64,000 bases of DNA from Anaeromyxobacter sp. (GCA_049840735.1 JASGJN010000026.1:96001-160000); one strand, 5' to 3'. Positions 38,650 to 49,386 are shown, counted from the stretch's first letter. The notes: generated from the sequence alone by a model not told the origin. Program-made: numbers and translations.

Positions 38650-39467
38650 CTATCCTGGTGCGTGACGGAAGGGCTCGGCGGTGGACGGCTCGACGTGCCG
38701 CAGGCCCGGGGACGGGCCGGGGTGGAGGCGGGCCAGCGCGGCCACGAACCCGGGGAACACCCGCCAGGCCCCCAGCAGCGGCGCGCCGGCGTGGAGGGCG
38801 TCGTCGCAGCGGATGGTGAAGGCGTGCCAGGCGCCGCCAGCCGGGGCGAGCGGCCAGGCCTGCGGGGTGTCCCCGGTTCGGACGGGAGGCAGGAGACGAG
38901 CAGCGTGTCCACCGTCAGGCCCAGGCCCAGGGCCTTCAGCGCCGCCTCCTTTCCGCACCACACCAGGTTCGCCCGGACCGGATGCCCGTCCGGCGAGCCT
39001 CGCACGAACGCCTGCTCCGCTGCGGTCAGGAAGGTCTCGAGGAAGGCCGGGGAGCGGGGCTCGATGCGCCCCAGGTCGATGCCGATCCCCGGCGCGCCCG
39101 CTCCGACGGCCGCGGCGCACATCGCGTGGCCCTCGGTGTGGCTGATGGAGAGGGTGACGGGCAGCAGGTCACCCGGGGTGAAGCCAGCCACCGGCTCCGC
39201 CCCGGGCGCCAGGCGCACCACCGGCCTGCCGCCCACCTCCGGCAGGATCTCGAGCGCCGGGGGTGGCCAGCGCCCGCCGTGGATCTCCGCCAGCGCCCGG
39301 GCCACCACCGACTTGGCCACGAGGCGCCCCACCAGCCACTCCAGGCGCCGGCGCGGCACCCGGAGCTGGCCGAGGCGCTCCCGCTCCGCCCCGGTCAGCC
39401 AGGCCTCGGGCGCCTCGCCAGCCTCTGCCAGCACCTCGCGGTCGGAGCGGAGCGCCCAGTGGATCAT
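38650..39467 (-). CDS. 4'-phosphopantetheinyl transferase, Sfp-like (probable -1 frameshift at ~38875)
   Basis: RR.EWL.GR..AK, LSISHT, GIDL, WCGKEAALKALG.GL; C-terminus reads better in the frame ending at 38650. Confidence 0.85.
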
Positions 39468-42400
39468 GCGTCCGCCCCTGCCGTGGCCGCGCGGCGGAGC
39501 TCCTCGGCCGAGGCCGGCGCAGGCACCTCGACCGTCCGGTAGCCGGAGAGCTCCAGGAACACGTGCCCTTCGGCGTCCACCACATCGGCGTCGAACCCCT
39601 CGCCCGGCAGCGGACGGACCTCGGCGAAGCAGGGGCCGCTGATGCCGCCAGGAGGCGCGTGGAGCCGGAGCGAGCCCACCGCCGCCGGCAGCCCGAACGC
39701 GCCGCGCCGGACGAGGTCGTGGATCCCGGCGGTCTGGAAGCAGAGCTCCAGGAGCCGCGGGAAGGTCCGCTCCAGCGCGTCCGGTGCGGCCAGGTTGGGC
39801 CCCAGGCCAGCGCGGAGGACGCCCACCGCCCCGCCCGCCTCGACCCGGACGCCTTCCAGCACCTGGTAGGCGGGGCCGTGGAAGTAGACGCGGTAGACGG
39901 CCTCGCGCCCCACCGTCAGGGCCGGCGGCGGCTGGAACGCGACGGCGCGCGGGGGCAGGGCGGCGCGCTCGACCAGCACGCAGCCGCGGAAGTGGAGCCG
40001 CTCCTGCGCGGGCAGCCCGGGCTTGGGCTGCAGGCGGGAGGAGAGCTGCACGTCCACCAGGAGCCCGTCACCCGCGCCCGGCCGCCCCACGGCGACGAGG
40101 TGCAGGGTGAGCGGCCGCAGACGGTGGAACTTGACCGGCTGCAGGAACTCCAGATCCCGCAGGCCGGTGACCACGTGCCCGGGGCAGAGCACGGTGGCCA
40201 CCTGGGCGAAGATCTCGGCGCCCATCACCCCGGGCAGCACCGGGACCCCGTCGATTTGGTGGTCCCGCAGGAAGGGCTGCTCGTTCGGATTCGAGGCGGG
40301 TCTCGACCAGCAGCCCCCGCCCCAGCGGCGCACCGACAAGGTGGCCCACCAGCGGGAAGCGGGCGGCGTGCTCCCGGAGCCAGGCCTGCGCCCGGTCCAG
40401 GTCGAGCCCGCCGGTGGGATCCCACTCCGCTGCCAGCGTGCCCAGCCGGCCGCCCACCACGATCTCGTCGGCGGCGCCGGACAGGAGCTCGCGGCGCACG
40501 GTCGGGATGCCGACCTCCGGATCGAGCATGTCGATGCCGGCCGCCTCCATGATCTTCGGGATCGAGCCGCGGGTGGCCATCCCGATCCCTCCCCAGGCCG
40601 TCCAGTCGATGGCCACGGCGCGGGTGCCGGGCCGCGCCCGCCGCAGCCAGCGCGACATGGCGCAGAGGCAGGCGTTGGCGGCGGCGTAGTCGGTCTGCCC
40701 GGCGTTGCCGAACCGGCCGGCCACGGAGCTGAAGACCACCGTGGCGCCGAGCGGCAGGTCGCGGGCCGCCTCCAGGAGCGCGTAGAACCCTTCGGCCTTG
40801 ATGTCGAAGACCCGGGCCCACTCCTCGTCCGGCTTGTCCGGCAGCGCGCGGCTGATCTCGATGCCGCCGGCGTGCAGCAGCGCGTCGATGCGGCCGCTCC
40901 GGGTCCGGACGGCCTCGATGGCCGCGCGGACCGAGGCGTCGTCGAGGAGGTTCGCGACGTGCCAGTGGGCGGTGCCACCGGCCGCCTCGACGCCCTCGAC
41001 CGCGCGCAGCGCCGCCTCCTGGCGCTCGACCGCCAGGAGGTGCCGGTCGATCGCCACCGGGGTCGGCTTGTCGCCCCGGGCGCGGGCCTCGGCGATGAGC
41101 GCCTCCTTGAGCCGCTCCCGGCCCTCGCGGAGGAGTCGCACGTGCGGGTCGTCCGCCGGCGGCGGCGCCACCAGGTCGAGCAGGTGGAACGTCCCGCCGG
41201 TGGCGGCGGCCAGGTCGGCCACGATGGCGCTGGTGATGCCGCCGGCCGCGCCGGTCACGACGAAGACGCTCTCCTTGCCCAGCGCGAGCGCGGGGCTGGG
41301 CGCCACCGGGCGCTCCTCAAGCGCGACGGACCAGCGCTGGCCGCCGTGCCGGCCCACCTCGACCACGCCCGGATCGCCCAGCGCCTCCGCCAGCAGCAGC
41401 TCGGCCGCGGCGGCCCCATCCGCCTCGGCGCCCAGGTCCACCACCTTCACCAGCGCCTCGGGGCGCTCACGCTTGAACGCCTTGACGAAGCCCTGGACCG
41501 CGCCTCCCAGCGGCGCGTCGGTGCCCTCGTCGCACAGGCCGAACAGGCCGCCGAGCCGCGTGCCGGCCACCAGGAAGGTGCCGGCCGGCGAGACCGCCTC
41601 GTACAGGGCGCGCATGGTGACGGCGAGGTTCTTGACGGTCACGCGCGTGCGATCGCGGAAGCCCTCCAGCGAGAGCGCGTCCAGCCGCGGCTCGGGGTCG
41701 AGCGCCGGCAGCCAGAACACACCGTGGACGGGCCCCTCGGACAGCCAGCCCTGCACGGTGGCGACCAGCTCGGCCGCCGGGCGCCGCGCGTCCAGCACCA
41801 GGGCGATGACGCCGCGGGAGGCCAGCAGCGCGGGCAGCGGGCTCTCCGCGGCGCCGACGCCGATGACGACGCGGGCGCCGGTGCCGAGCTCGACGCCGGT
41901 GGCCTTGCAGAGCGCGAGCGGCGGGCGCAGCACCGGGGTGGCCACCCGGCGCGGGACCTGGTCGGCGTTCGCGAGCGGGCGGGCGCTGGCCCTGGCCGGC
42001 CGTGGCGGGGCGGTCGCGGTCGCGGGCGCAGCGGCGGCCGGAGCAGCGGGCGCGGCCACCGGGGCGTCCAGCGCGGGGGTCGCGGCCTGGTCGGTCCGGT
42101 GCTGGTACACGAACCCGATGACGTGGCGGAGCGTGGGGAAGTCGCGCAGCCTCAGGTTCTCCACGCGCGGGATGGACCAGGCCGCGCGGACGGCGGCGAA
42201 GGTCTCGGCCTGCTTCACGGTGTCCACGCCCAGGTCGGCCTCGAGATCGAGGTCGAGGTCGAGCAGATCGGGCGGGTACCCGGTCTTCTCCGAGACGATC
42301 TCGATCACGCGCGAGCGGACCGGGTCCTCCTCGTCGGGCCCGGACTCGGTGTGGGCCGCGTGGTGGGCCGTCAGGGCGTCCAGGACCGGATCCGCGGGCG

Positions 42401-47675: not shown

Positions 47676-47759
47676 GATCCTGGCTCCCCTGGACGCGCCG
47701 CACGCCCTGGCGCGCCCGCAGCTGCCCGGCCCGGGGGCGTCCGGGCCGTGAGGTGGCGC

Positions 47760-49386
47760 TCACGCGGGGAAGGCCTGGGCCAGGCTCCCCGCCACCACGT
47801 CCATGTCCTCAATCCCGCCGGCCTGGGCGGCCAGCACCCGGGCCCAGTCCACTGCGCGCAGGAACTCCGGGTCGCCCTGGCCGGCCGCGACCGCCCACCG
47901 CGCGCCCTCGAAGGCGACGCGGGCGGCGGCCTCCCGCGCGAAGACGCGGGACATGGCCGCGAGCGCCGCGGGAGACAGCGGCGTGGCGGCGCTGGGCTGG
48001 CCGGCGACCCGCTCGGCGAAGACCGCCGCGCCCTCGGCCTGCGCCACCAGCTCGCCCAGCCGGAAGAGCACGTGCTGGTGGCGCGTGAGCCGGTCGAGGC
48101 GGCAGCGCTCCAGGACGGCGGCCAGGCACCGCAGCGCCAGCGCGGCCTCGCCGGCGCCCAGGTCCTTGCGCGCGGCCTGGAGCGCCTCCATGCGGCCGGC
48201 CCAGTCGAGGTAGTGGGCCCCGCGCGACTTGAGGTGGAGCTGCCACCGGTCGCGCGCCGTGGTCCACTCCAGGATCTCCGAGGTGCCCTCGTAGATGGTC
48301 GTGATGCGGACGTCCCGCTTGATCTTCTCCACCATGTACTCGCGGGTGTAGCCGTTGCCGCCCAGCGCCTGGATGGCGTCCTCGGCCGCGCGGTTGCCGG
48401 CCTCGGTGGCCAAGAGCTTCGCGATGGCGCCCTCGGTGGCCAGGTCCTGCGCGCCGGCGTCCAGCCGGTCCGCGGTCCACTCGATGTACGCGCGCGCCGC
48501 CTCCAGCCGCACGGCGTTCGGGACCAGCAGCTTGTGGGTGAACCCCTGCTTGCGCATGAGCGGGGTCCCGCCCACCACCCGCTCCTGCGCGTAGCGGATG
48601 GCCCGCTCCAGGGCGGCCCAGCCGCCGCCCAGGCCGAACGCCGCGACCATGAGGCGCGTGTAGCCGAAGACGGCCTGCGCCTGCGTGAACCCCTGCCCCT
48701 CCACCCCGCCCACCAGGTGCTCGGCCGGGACGATGACGTTGTCGAGGAAGAGGGCCGTGGTGTTGCTGGCCCGGATGCCGTGCTTGTCCTCGTGCTTGCC
48801 GGCCGTCAGCCCCGGGGTGCCTTGCTCGACCACGAACCAGGAGGCGCCGCCCGGCGCGTTGGCCAGGATCAGCCACAGGGCGGCCACGCCGCCGTTGCTG
48901 ATCCACTGCTTGCGCCCGTTCAGCGCGTAGCAGGGGCGCCCCTCGTGCACCACCGGCGCCGCCGTGGTGCGCAGCGAGGTCAGGTCGCTGCCGGCCTGCG
49001 GCTCGGTGGCGCCGTAGGCGACCAGCAGCCCCTCCTCGGCGATGCGCCGCATCCAGCGCTGCTTCTGCTCCGGCGTTCCACCCACGGTGATGGGGTCGGT
49101 CCCCAGGAACGTGGCCAGCACGCCGGTGGCGATCCCGAGGTCGATCCGCGCCAGCAGCTCGGACACGCGGTAGATGTCCTGGGCGCCGCCGCCCATCCCG
49201 CCGAACTCCTCCGGGATGAAGAGCAGGTGCAGGCCCAGGTTGCCGTAGAGGTCGCGGTGGACCTGCTCCGGGAACTCGTTGGTGCGATCGAGCTCCAGCA
49301 GCCGCTCCGGGGAAAGCTCCCGCTCGGCGTACTCGCGCAGCGTGCCGAGGACGAGGTCCAGGGACTCGCGATCGAATCCTTCCCAT
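47760..49386 (-). CDS. Acyl-CoA dehydrogenase with C-terminal extension (extra base just after the ATG)
   Basis: Corrected N-terminus [13 protein letters not shown]...[50 protein letters not shown]. Confidence 0.92.

What the first reader, a model, noticed from the sequence alone, without database searches (positions are those of the whole stretch)
38650..49386. ACAD + double-KS megasynthase + PPTase: candidate non-canonical fatty acid/lipid synthase
Seen: the order KS-AT-KS-ACP2-KR-DH in one polypeptide. The second KS keeps Cys-His-His (NAACAST, SHETFT, TGHAMG), so it is not a degenerate chain-length factor. No ER or thioesterase was recognised, and an acyl-CoA dehydrogenase lies directly upstream in the same direction. 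Established: PfaA-type PUFA synthases are KS-AT-ACPn-KR-DH with a separate ER, and acyl-CoA dehydrogenases can reduce enoyl thioesters in anaerobes. AT motif HAFH suggests malonyl extender. Inference: the ACAD may serve as the missing enoyl reductase or prepare the starter unit, and two active KSs may divide initiation and elongation or join two chains. The product cannot be predicted from sequence.
Basis: partly seen in the sequence, partly recalled or inferred. Interest (0 to 1): 0.75.

Follow-up and report, generated by a model that had tools for sequence, protein, structure and literature searches.

The report
Lipid megasynthase with dehydrogenase partner
This is a widespread but uncharacterised bacterial fatty-acid-type megasynthase, always paired here with an acyl-CoA dehydrogenase that probably supplies its missing reduction step, and its carrier domains carry threonine where all textbook carrier proteins carry serine.

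Summary
The three genes are real and lie on the minus strand. They are an acyl-CoA dehydrogenase (ACAD), a KS-AT-KS2-ACPx2-KR-DH megasynthase and an Sfp-type PPTase. In this assembly each gene has one frame break. Essential rpoB and rpoC are broken too, so these are probably assembly errors.

The layout is the "Type R secondary lipid synthase" of Shulse & Allen 2011, whose product is unknown. This scan met it before on other DNA.

New here:
- **ACAD linkage.** The ACAD sits directly upstream in 88 of 113 related loci, which form one side of the KS2 tree.
- **Other reductases in its place.** Relatives without it sometimes carry another enoyl reductase in cis. Four have a fused FabK-like domain, one has a FabI-like gene in the ACAD's position, and one has a PfaD gene next door.
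- **Hosts keep type II FAS.** The window's own genome has FabI, so the cassette is an extra system.
- **Threonine carrier domains.** Nearly every ACP domain in the family has Thr at the phosphopantetheine site (212 of 212 in the first 80 loci).
- **Malonyl-CoA supply.** Many clusters add a dedicated acetyl-CoA carboxylase.

Most likely it makes a long, largely saturated acyl chain. Interest 0.6.

The parts
47760..49386 (-). Long (VLCAD-type) acyl-CoA dehydrogenase. The ATG is at 49386 and a frame break follows codon 4 (about 49374). The body runs 49373..47763 and the stop is 47762-47760.
   Evidence: Pfam Acyl-CoA_dh_N/M/1. NCBIfam best hit AcrC, 241.8 bits, below its cut-off. PDB sequence hits to SCAD/MCAD at 3e-66. 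N-terminus compared with relatives. AF2 model pLDDT 86.4 and Foldseek matches to VLCAD-type chains, TMq 0.75-0.81. The YEG catalytic Glu is kept in 62 of 62 relatives.
40068..47675 (-). Megasynthase main frame (2535 aa as an ORF). Real coding runs to about 40285, and the tail of this ORF is out-of-frame read-through.
   Evidence: Pfam and NCBIfam; translation; GC3 frame plot.
46278..47663 (-). KS1, a PfaA-like ketosynthase (Cys213, His347, His385).
   Evidence: Pfam residues 5-466. TIGR02813 covers 6-906. Cys kept in 66 of 66 relatives and each His in 67 of 67.
45012..45863 (-). Acyltransferase domain with GHSLGE and HAFH motifs (malonyl-type).
   Evidence: Pfam residues 605-888. FabD 227.6 bits. 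Ser kept in 73 of 73 and HAFH in 74 of 74.
43116..44669 (-). KS2, a second ketosynthase. It is FabF-like over its last ~300 residues, its N-terminal ~200 residues are divergent, and the Cys-His-His-Lys set is intact.
   Evidence: PDB FabF 4ddo, 94.8 bits, with catalytic residues aligned. NCBIfam FabF 131 bits against a cut-off of 493.75. All four residues kept in 80 of 80.
42486..42725 (-). ACP-like domain 1 ([14 protein letters not shown]), with Thr at the Ser position.
   Evidence: Alignment with PigH and Streptomyces ACPs places the T on their Ser. Alignment A3.
42093..42332 (-). ACP-like domain 2, with the same motif and Thr.
   Evidence: Motif position; Pfam PP-binding at 1789-1832.
40590..41264 (-). 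Ketoreductase domain.
   Evidence: Pfam KR residues 2138-2362. Tyr and Asn kept in 53 of 53.
40284..40298 (-). Frame break between KR and DH.
   Evidence: Sequence and translations; GC3 frame plot.
39464..40294 (-). PKS-type dehydratase (HxxxGxxxxP motif present), read in a different frame from the main synthase ORF.
   Evidence: Pfam PS-DH and PKS_DH_N; translation P0002. His and Pro kept in 53 of 53.
38650..39467 (-). Sfp-type PPTase. Its ATG overlaps the DH stop (ATGA). A frame break lies near 38870, and the C-terminal part ends at the stop 38652-38650.
   Evidence: Pfam ACPS 48 bits; translations compared with the PPTases of L001 and others.

Best explanation
The locus is a three-gene cassette that moves horizontally. 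It encodes an iterative type I fatty-acid-type synthase of the catalogued but uncharacterised 'Type R secondary lipid synthase' family.

Proposed roles:
- The AT loads malonyl units onto tandem carrier domains.
- KS1 and KS2, both catalytically intact, do the condensations, probably dividing priming from elongation.
- KR and DH take each beta-keto group to a trans-2-enoyl thioester.
- The VLCAD-type ACAD encoded directly upstream acts in trans as the enoyl-thioester reductase that the megasynthase lacks. The product would then be a long, largely saturated acyl chain.
- The linked PPTase activates the family's unusual Thr-type carrier domains.

What is shown: domain content, conserved catalytic residues, gene linkage and family distribution.
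What is inferred: the direction of the ACAD reaction, that it works on ACP-bound chains, phosphopantetheinylation of Thr, the roles of the two KS domains, and the product.

The three frame breaks in this copy are most likely assembly errors.
For: 1. Family identity. The architecture KS-MAT-'CLF'-ACPn-KR plus a downstream PPTase matches Type R. Relatives number 649 cluster representatives at E<=1e-30 and more than 771 genomic places.
2. Coupling. The ACAD lies directly upstream on the same strand in 54 of 54 loci and 88 of 113 loci (one contig is counted twice, as L050 and L185). ACAD-hit to KS1-hit gaps are mostly 26-150 nt in the first scan. The ACAD catalytic Glu is kept in 62 of 62.
3. Other reductases where the ACAD is absent.
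   - 18 of 82 long representatives carry an N-terminal FabK/PfaD-type (NMO) domain, and 0 of 82 carry an ACAD.
   - Of 25 loci without the ACAD, 4 have the fused FabK-like domain (L116, L140, L150, L171).
   - One has a gene whose 12 best NCBIfam hits are all FabI, in exactly the ACAD's position (L128).
   - L151 has a true PfaD gene (TIGR02814, 657 bits against a cut-off of 449) beside the PPTase. L151 groups with the ACAD side of the KS2 tree (support 99 in FastTree; 98 in IQ-TREE quick).
4. With an ER the cassette holds every FAS activity. Many members also add a dedicated acetyl-CoA carboxylase: a 1835-1904 aa single chain in L156, L173 and L177, or a carboxyltransferase gene in Elusimicrobia.
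5. The ACAD's best NCBIfam hit is an enzyme that runs as a reductase (acryloyl-CoA reductase AcrC, 241.8 bits). Its fold is the long-chain VLCAD type.
6. ACAD with ACP complex prediction: weak support only. Score 0.45, best of 3 controls 0.00. The mark was reached by 116 of 157 solved complexes and 2 of 215 mismatched pairs. At 0.60 or under it was reached by only 18 of those 157 and by both mismatches that passed. The runs agree in at least 91% of contacts and the partner's pLDDT is at least 84. My own alignments and the riding FAD lie outside the calibration.
7. Frame breaks as errors. rpoB and rpoC on contig C17 are each split into pieces in different frames, while carB is intact.
Against: - No electron donor such as EtfAB is part of the cassette. 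No ETF domain appeared among the window ORFs that I scanned. ACADs normally oxidise; running as a reductase needs a low-potential donor.
- 19 of 25 loci without the ACAD show no ER within the fetched flanks, so an ER in cis is not obligatory for the family.
- The host has FabI, FabG and FabF, and 16 of 19 ACAD-class genomes have a FabI- or FabK-like gene. A housekeeping ER could serve in trans.
- The ACAD association maps to one side of the tree, so it may reflect a single acquisition. The displacement events are few: about four.
- ACAD homologues that I recall from polyketide clusters (FkbI, TcsD, ZmaG; recalled, from no call) oxidise ACP-bound substrates.
- The complex score is in the weak band.
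- E. coli ACP S36T cannot be phosphopantetheinylated (PMC3340395, passages), so the Thr domains might not be ordinary carriers.
Confidence: 0.5

Rival explanations
1. The ACAD works in its usual oxidative direction. It would put an alpha,beta (or further) double bond into a saturated starter or intermediate, either as acyl-CoA or on the carrier. The ER-less synthase would then make an unsaturated, polyene or hydroxy chain rather than a saturated one.
For: The enzyme is 37-38% identical to true MCAD and cyclohexenecarboxyl-CoA dehydrogenases and keeps the YEG Glu. No Etf-type donor is linked. KS-AT-ACP-KR-DH synthases without ER are known to make polyenes (enediyne PKSE; recalled). 19 of 25 family loci without the ACAD have no ER nearby.
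Against: KR and DH already produce the 2-enoyl thioester, so an oxidising ACAD would be redundant during elongation. The positions the ACAD occupies are filled by bona fide enoyl reductases in relatives. A dedicated acetyl-CoA carboxylase and tandem carriers point to bulk acyl-chain synthesis.
Confidence: 0.25
2. The ACAD is co-transcribed but does not act in chain assembly. It might trim, recycle or degrade the product or its CoA ester, while enoyl reduction, if any, is borrowed from housekeeping FabI or FabK.
For: The host has FabI. 16 of 19 ACAD-class genomes have FabI- or FabK-like genes. High similarity to CoA-dependent ACADs.
Against: Linkage is absolute across Myxococcota, Acidobacteriota, Chloroflexota, Actinomycetota, Spirochaetota and others, despite frequent horizontal transfer. 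Three ACAD-class genomes, one a complete chromosome (G003), show no FabI, FabK or FabV hit. There is weak docking support with the carrier domain.
Confidence: 0.12
3. In this particular genome the cassette is a decaying pseudogene cluster: three real frameshifts in 10.7 kb.
For: One frame break in each of the three genes. No public run holds the stretch, so the breaks cannot be checked against reads (best share of words 0.07).
Against: Essential rpoB and rpoC show one frame break each in about 8 kb of the same assembly. GC3 stays at 0.95-0.97 across the genes. All catalytic residues are intact. No in-frame stops or deletions were seen other than at the shifts.
Confidence: 0.1

Closest known systems
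Type R secondary lipid synthase cluster (Shulse & Allen 2011, PLoS One 6:e20146, PMC3098273; Koribacter, Solibacter, Elusimicrobium, Roseiflexus)
   Same: One pfaA homologue with KS-MAT-second KS ('CLF')-tandem ACPs-KR, followed by a PPTase gene. It is spread over several phyla and its product is unknown. An acetyl-CoA carboxylase gene lies inside some clusters; the paper notes this for Koribacter, and I saw it in Korobacteraceae and others.
   Different: The paper's text does not mention the upstream ACAD, the C-terminal DH in Type R, the active-site Cys of the 'CLF', or the Thr in the carrier domains. Figures and supplements were not seen. The window has 2 ACPs against the paper's 3-6; relatives have 1-6.
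PfaA of bacterial PUFA synthases (TIGR02813), with PfaB, PfaC, PfaD and PfaE
   Same: KS-MAT, tandem ACPs, KR and PKS-type DH in one chain. A dedicated Sfp-type PPTase (PfaE). Iterative malonyl extension.
   Different: The score is 879.7, below the cut-off of 1010.1. An extra active KS sits between the AT and the ACPs. There are no PfaB or PfaC genes, and no PfaD-like hit in the host genome. An ACAD stands where PfaD (FabK-type ER) would serve. Carrier domains have Thr instead of Ser.
VLCAD-type long acyl-CoA dehydrogenases (human VLCAD 3b96/7s7g, B. anthracis 3owa, Thermus 2z1q, ACAD9)
   Same: ACAD core plus an extra C-terminal helical domain; TMq 0.75-0.81. Catalytic Glu in YEG.
   Different: 23-27% identity over the full length. 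The C-terminal 162 residues have no sequence match in the PDB. It is fixed in an operon with a megasynthase rather than with beta-oxidation genes.
ACAD-family enoyl-CoA reductases that work with EtfAB (butyryl-CoA dehydrogenase Bcd 5ol2, caffeyl-CoA reductase CarC 6fah, acryloyl-CoA reductase AcrC NF042972)
   Same: Same fold and catalytic base. AcrC is the best NCBIfam hit. They are a precedent for ACADs running as reductases.
   Different: Below every equivalog cut-off (241.8 against 640). No Etf genes in the cassette. Extra C-terminal domain. The presumed substrate is a long, possibly carrier-bound chain.

Membership tests
Type R secondary lipid synthase cluster (Shulse & Allen 2011) | Single pfaA homologue with KS-MAT-CLF(second KS)-ACPn-KR | tested here: met
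   Pfam and NCBIfam domain order and motifs. ACP number is 2 here against 3-6 in the paper.
Type R secondary lipid synthase cluster (Shulse & Allen 2011) | PPTase gene downstream of the synthase | tested here: met
   ACPS 48 bits at 39467..38650, with its start overlapping the DH stop. Found within 2 kb in 42 of 49 relatives.
Type R secondary lipid synthase cluster (Shulse & Allen 2011) | KS groups phylogenetically with the Type R KS of the named genomes | tested here: inconclusive
   The KS2 trees include Solibacteraceae, Korobacteraceae, Roseiflexaceae and Elusimicrobiaceae relatives. The five named genomes themselves and the other Types were not in my trees.
PfaA, PUFA synthase subunit (TIGR02813) | Score over the curated cut-off | tested here: not met
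   879.7 bits against a cut-off of 1010.1.
PfaA, PUFA synthase subunit (TIGR02813) | Partner genes pfaB, pfaC and pfaD (FabK-type ER) | tested here: not met
   None in the window. No PfaD- or NMO-like tblastn hit in the host genome.
Acyl-CoA dehydrogenase, VLCAD-type | N, middle and C-terminal ACAD domains with the catalytic Glu | tested here: met
   Pfam. The YEG Glu is aligned with SCAD/MCAD and kept in 62 of 62 relatives.
Acyl-CoA dehydrogenase, VLCAD-type | Additional C-terminal helical domain | tested here: met
   AF2 model and Foldseek: 3owa, VLCAD, 2z1q and ACAD9 are matched over the full length.
Etf-dependent ACAD-type enoyl-CoA reductases (Bcd/CarC/AcrC) | Equivalog score and linked EtfAB genes | tested here: not met
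   AcrC 241.8 bits against a cut-off of 640. No ETF domain among the window ORFs scanned. The genome-wide presence of Etf was not tested.
Phosphopantetheine-binding carrier domain (PF00550) | Conserved Ser at the start of helix II as the attachment site | tested here: not met
   Thr in both window repeats. It aligns with the Ser of solved ACPs. 212 of 212 repeats in 80 loci have Thr.
Phosphopantetheine-binding carrier domain (PF00550) | Profile match | tested here: inconclusive
   23.3 bits against a cut-off of 20.8, with no stretch passing on its own. The window's domains are not listed at E<=0.001 in the whole-genome search.
Sfp-type PPTase | ACPS domain over the cut-off, with the GxD and WxxKE motifs | tested here: met
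   48 bits against a cut-off of 25. GIDLG and WCGKEAALK are seen in the translation. Activity on Thr is not testable here.

The most novel reading that the evidence does not exclude
The whole family, and a second megasynthase in this same genome, attaches phosphopantetheine to a threonine instead of the universal serine. That would explain why a private PPTase is always linked or fused to the synthase. In the clade to which this window belongs, an acyl-CoA dehydrogenase has been recruited as the enoyl reductase, giving a complete alternative fatty acid synthase built from unexpected parts. ER-fused relatives may be the only fatty acid synthase in some Asgard and Thermoplasmatota archaea, which lack AcpP and FabZ.
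Probability: 0.35. Interest if true: 0.85.

Novelty: new variant of a known kind. Interest (0 to 1): 0.6.

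Why it matters
Type R synthases have been a catalogue entry without a product since 2011, although they occur in hundreds of soil, sediment and wastewater species.

This analysis gives three concrete, testable claims:
- An ACAD stands in for the enoyl reductase of a megasynthase. 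I know of no characterised FAS or PKS that does this.
- The carrier domains use Thr where E. coli ACP S36T is dead. This predicts a new substrate specificity for a PPTase and an unreported protein-cofactor linkage.
- The clusters carry their own acetyl-CoA carboxylase, which points to a bulk lipid rather than a trace metabolite.

If these hold, they would explain part of the unexplained lipid diversity of Acidobacteriota, Chloroflexota and Myxococcota. They would also provide orthogonal carrier/PPTase pairs for engineering.

Tried and rejected
- **Read-level check of the frame breaks.** The look-up of sequencing runs found no run holding the stretch (24 rows, best share of words 0.07), so I laid no reads.
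- **'The cassette is the host's only FAS.'** Rejected. FabH is over its cut-off in most ACAD-class genomes. AcpP has a hit at E<=1e-5 in all 19, over the cut-off in 17. FabF is over its cut-off in 5 of 5 tested. FabZ (TIGR01750) is nevertheless missing in 8 of the 19.
- **'Hosts lack FabI/K/V.'** Rejected for the window's genome and for 16 of 19 relatives. Three have none (G001, G003, G010). The two FabV searches had silent controls and show nothing either way.
- **Fixed-motif regex counts** were too rigid and gave false misses. I replaced them with alignment-based counts.
- **ACAD fused to the synthase:** 0 of 82 long representatives.
- **ACAD C-terminal 162 residues:** no meaningful sequence match in the PDB.
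- **Literature searches.** Nothing was found for a KS-AT-KS layout, for a product of Type R, for an ACAD serving a PUFA-type synthase, or for Thr as a phosphopantetheine site. The JACS Au 2026 survey (PMC13291983) has no mention of ACAD, Chloroflexi or threonine.
- **Herlemann et al. 2009** (Elusimicrobium genome) is not held.
- **Whether L151 is nested inside or sister to the ACAD-linked clade** stayed unresolved: support 70 in FastTree and an open fork in IQ-TREE.

Full report
**What is there.**
The window has about 75% G+C. A codon-position G+C filter gives a clean gene map. The finding's three genes lie on the minus strand.

Pfam and NCBIfam show three things:
- An acyl-CoA dehydrogenase (ACAD) in the frame of 49445..47760.
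- A megasynthase ORF at 47675..40068. It holds KS1, a malonyl-type AT, a second KS, two ACP-like repeats and a KR.
- An ACPS-type PPTase at 39467 onward.

A PKS-type DH lies in a different frame (40294..39464). No ER or thioesterase domain was detected in the synthase.

**Frame breaks.**
Each of the three genes has one frame break in this assembly.
- The ACAD matches its relatives' N-terminus (MGRI...) for four codons in the frame of the ATG at 49386. It then continues in another frame.
- The synthase switches frame at about 40290, just before the DH's HxxxGxxxxP motif.
- The PPTase switches near 38870 and ends at 38650.

As a control I looked at essential genes of the same 26-contig, 94%-complete genome. 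rpoB and rpoC on contig C17 are each split into two pieces. Their coordinates put the pieces in different frames, and they sit in different open frames. carB is intact. That is about two breaks in 8 kb of indispensable genes, a rate like the cassette's three in 10.7 kb. I therefore read the breaks as assembly errors.

No public run holds the stretch, so reads could not settle it. In relatives, KS1 to DH is one open frame in 31 of 43 complete loci. Several of the other 12 come from long-read metagenome bins, judging from their record titles.

**Which family.**
Earlier notes of this scan on four other genomes pointed to Shulse & Allen 2011. I read the relevant passages. Their 'Type R' cluster is one pfaA homologue, KS-MAT-CLF-ACP(3-6)-KR, followed by a PPTase gene. 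It occurs in Koribacter, Solibacter, Elusimicrobium and Roseiflexus, and its product is unknown. The window fits.

The paper's text has no occurrence of 'acyl-CoA dehydrogenase', 'dehydrogenase', 'threonine' or 'serine'. I did not see its figures or supplements.

The family is large. A search of 1.84 billion cluster representatives with KS2 gave 649 hits at E<=1e-30, and all of the best 150 scored above 438 bits. Two genome scans gave 200 and more than 771 confirmed places. They cover Myxococcota, Acidobacteriota, Chloroflexota, Actinomycetota, Elusimicrobiota, Spirochaetota, Calditrichota, Gemmatimonadota, Thermodesulfobacteriota, and Heimdall- and Thermoplasmatota archaea.

The window's nearest relatives are Anaeromyxobacteraceae bins, at 82-85% identity in KS2. 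The KS2 tree disagrees with organismal relationships, for example placing Anaeromyxobacteraceae inside Acidobacteriota rows. So the cassette moves horizontally.

**KS2.**
KS2 aligns with FabF over its last ~300 residues, with Cys, His and His in register. It scores only 131 bits against the FabF model, whose cut-off is 493.75. Cys, both His and the Lys are invariant in 80 of 80 relatives.

Other catalytic residues are also invariant in every relative where the column was covered:
- KS1 Cys, 66 of 66
- KS1 His, 67 of 67 each
- AT Ser, 73 of 73
- AT HAFH, 74 of 74
- KR Tyr, 53 of 53
- DH His, 53 of 53

So KS2 is not a degenerate chain-length factor.

A subgroup of Pseudomonadota and Myxococcota members has an additional carrier domain between the AT and KS2. 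That layout looks like two modules, KS1-AT-ACP and KS2-ACPn-KR-DH. It fits a division into priming and elongation, though this is inference.

**The ACAD.**
It lies directly upstream on the same strand in two counts:
- 54 of 54 loci of the first scan that have at least 1.8 kb upstream.
- 88 of 113 loci over both scans. One contig is counted twice, as L050 and L185.

Its YEG catalytic Glu is kept in 62 of 62. By sequence its core resembles SCAD, MCAD and cyclohexenecarboxyl-CoA dehydrogenase (3e-66). Its best NCBIfam hit is acryloyl-CoA reductase AcrC, below the cut-off.

An AlphaFold2 model (pLDDT 86.4, pTM 0.90) matches VLCAD-type long ACADs over its full length, including the extra C-terminal helical domain (TMq 0.75-0.81). 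That domain has no sequence match among solved structures.

**Is the ACAD the missing reductase?**
Three comparisons bear on this.

First, the KS2 trees. I built a FastTree of 154 rows and an IQ-TREE quick tree of a hand-picked 42 rows. I left out two duplicate loci and rows covering less than 440 or 480 residues of KS2. Both trees put all ACAD-linked loci on one side of a well-supported branch (99 and 98).

Second, members without the ACAD sometimes carry a different enoyl reductase in cis.
- 18 of 82 long representatives have a ~690-residue N-terminal extension with an NMO (FabK/PfaD-type) domain. None of the 82 has an ACAD.
- Four fetched loci have this fusion (L116, L140, L150, L171). For L140, FabK is the only NCBIfam hit of the extension.
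- In an Elusimicrobia bin (L128), a gene whose 12 best NCBIfam hits are all FabI sits exactly where the ACAD sits elsewhere.
- L151 (Bellilinea) groups with the ACAD side of the tree but lacks the ACAD. It has a true PfaD gene (657 bits against a cut-off of 449) next to its PPTase. Whether L151 is nested in or sister to the ACAD clade is unresolved.

Third, with an ER the cassette would contain every activity of a fatty acid synthase, and many members add malonyl-CoA supply.
- A single-chain acetyl-CoA carboxylase of 1835-1904 residues lies between the synthase and the PPTase in the three loci I scanned with Pfam: the Korobacteraceae locus L156, and the Actinomycetota loci L173 and L177.
- A carboxyltransferase gene follows the PPTase in Elusimicrobia.

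Against the idea:
- 19 of the 25 loci without the ACAD show no ER in the fetched flanks.
- No Etf-type electron donor is linked.
- The association may go back to a single event.

A complex prediction of the ACAD (with FAD) and the first carrier domain gave only weak support. The score was 0.45 and the best of three controls was 0.00. The mark was reached by 116 of 157 solved complexes and 2 of 215 mismatched pairs. At 0.60 or under it was reached by only 18 of those 157 and by both mismatches that passed. The runs agree in at least 91% of contacts, and the partner's pLDDT is at least 84. My own alignments and the riding ligand lie outside the calibration.

**Host background.**
The window's genome has a FabI whose twelve best NCBIfam hits are all FabI models. 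It also has a FabG, and a FabF-like hit beside it on contig C2.

Among 19 genomes of the ACAD class:
- FabH is over its cut-off in most.
- AcpP has a hit at E<=1e-5 in all 19, and is over its cut-off in 17.
- FabF is over its cut-off in 5 of 5 tested.
- 12 have a FabI-like gene and 7 a FabK-like gene at E<=1e-40.
- Three have neither (G001, G003, G010), and G003 is a complete chromosome.
- FabZ by TIGR01750 is absent from 8 of the 19.

So the cassette is an additional system rather than a replacement for type II FAS. The archaeal carriers of the ER-fused form lack AcpP and FabZ hits.

**Threonine carrier domains.**
Both window repeats read [14 protein letters not shown]. The Thr aligns with the phosphopantetheinyl Ser of solved ACPs, namely the two ACP domains of PigH and Streptomyces ACP.

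- In the first 80 loci, all 212 repeats found have Thr.
- The 150 representatives hold 327 Thr-type motifs. A looser Ser pattern found 17.
- By the strict pattern, only three of the 82 representatives of 2000 residues or more have Ser-type repeats: P0051 with five, P0113 with two and P0145 with one.
- Ser and Thr alternate within one tandem array in a Heimdallarchaeum locus (DS, DT, DS). That alternation argues that the Thr occupies a working attachment site.

In the window's own genome, 15 PF00550 matches were found. Thirteen carry Ser, two of them in atypical context. Two carry Thr, and those two belong to a second megasynthase on contig C20. A motif scan of the whole genome finds the Thr type only at these two loci.

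E. coli ACP S36T cannot be modified (PMC3340395, passages). Four literature searches found no report of Thr as an attachment site. The library does not cover subscription journals.

The PPTase is always linked, or fused to the synthase's C-terminus in many representatives. I infer that it has adapted to Thr. This is untested.

**Verdict.**
The layout is a known catalogue type. The ACAD link is genuine, and its proposed role as the missing reductase is the best-supported reading, at about even odds. The Thr-type carriers and the pattern of different reductases filling the same role appear to be undescribed.

Noticed in passing
G000:C20:767791-779296 (L210:5792-17297, + strand): A second megasynthase in the same genome also has two Thr-type carrier repeats (ELGIDTVK and ELGIDTVR). 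One ORF holds KS-AT plus the carriers, and the next holds KS-KR-DH. The layout differs from Type R, so Thr carriers are not confined to one family.
   Followed up: partly
L171 (Ca. Heimdallarchaeum aukensis, complete genome), L116, L143, L144, L181: Asgard and Thermoplasmatota archaea carry members of the family. The Heimdall forms have a fused FabK-like ER and a carboxyltransferase gene upstream. The three archaeal genomes searched (G024, G025, G032) show no FabZ hit, and no AcpP hit outside the synthase itself.
   Followed up: partly
L156:18616-24330, L173:14217-19724, L177:14343-20030: A single-chain, eukaryote-style acetyl-CoA carboxylase (BC-BCCP-central-CT, 1835-1904 aa) is inserted between the synthase and the PPTase in the three loci scanned (one Acidobacteriota, two Actinomycetota).
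   Followed up: partly
L133, L137, L148, L162, L178: A Pseudomonadota/Myxococcota subgroup has an extra carrier domain between the AT and KS2, and mostly a GNAT gene after the PPTase (L133, L137, L154, L178). L137 has an aromatic amino-acid lyase gene upstream.
   Followed up: no
Genomes G001, G003, G004, G008, G009, G010 (Chloroflexota with the cassette): These genomes have no FabZ (TIGR01750) hit, although FabH and AcpP hits are present in all six and FabF in the four that were tested. G001, G003 and G010 also have no FabI-, FabK- or FabV-like hit. Their type II FAS seems to lack recognisable dehydratase and reductase genes.
   Followed up: partly
G000:C17:176038-184456 and G000:C23:27-4550: rpoB and rpoC each carry a frame break. 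A second, heavily fragmented rpoBC copy with internal stops sits at a contig end.
   Followed up: partly
window 51378-53420 (- strand): A pta-like gene (PTA_PTB, 52455-53420) is followed by only a fragment of acetate kinase. The hit covers profile positions 173-332 of 392. This may be another frame break or a remnant.
   Followed up: partly
G000:C7:257232-257828: A paralogue of the cluster PPTase (47% identity) lies elsewhere in the genome. Its neighbourhood was not examined.
   Followed up: no
window 14606-18502 (+) and 22486-23103 (-): A 1298-residue ORF at 81% G+C has only a short methyltransferase hit. An IS110-family transposase fragment lies nearby.
   Followed up: no
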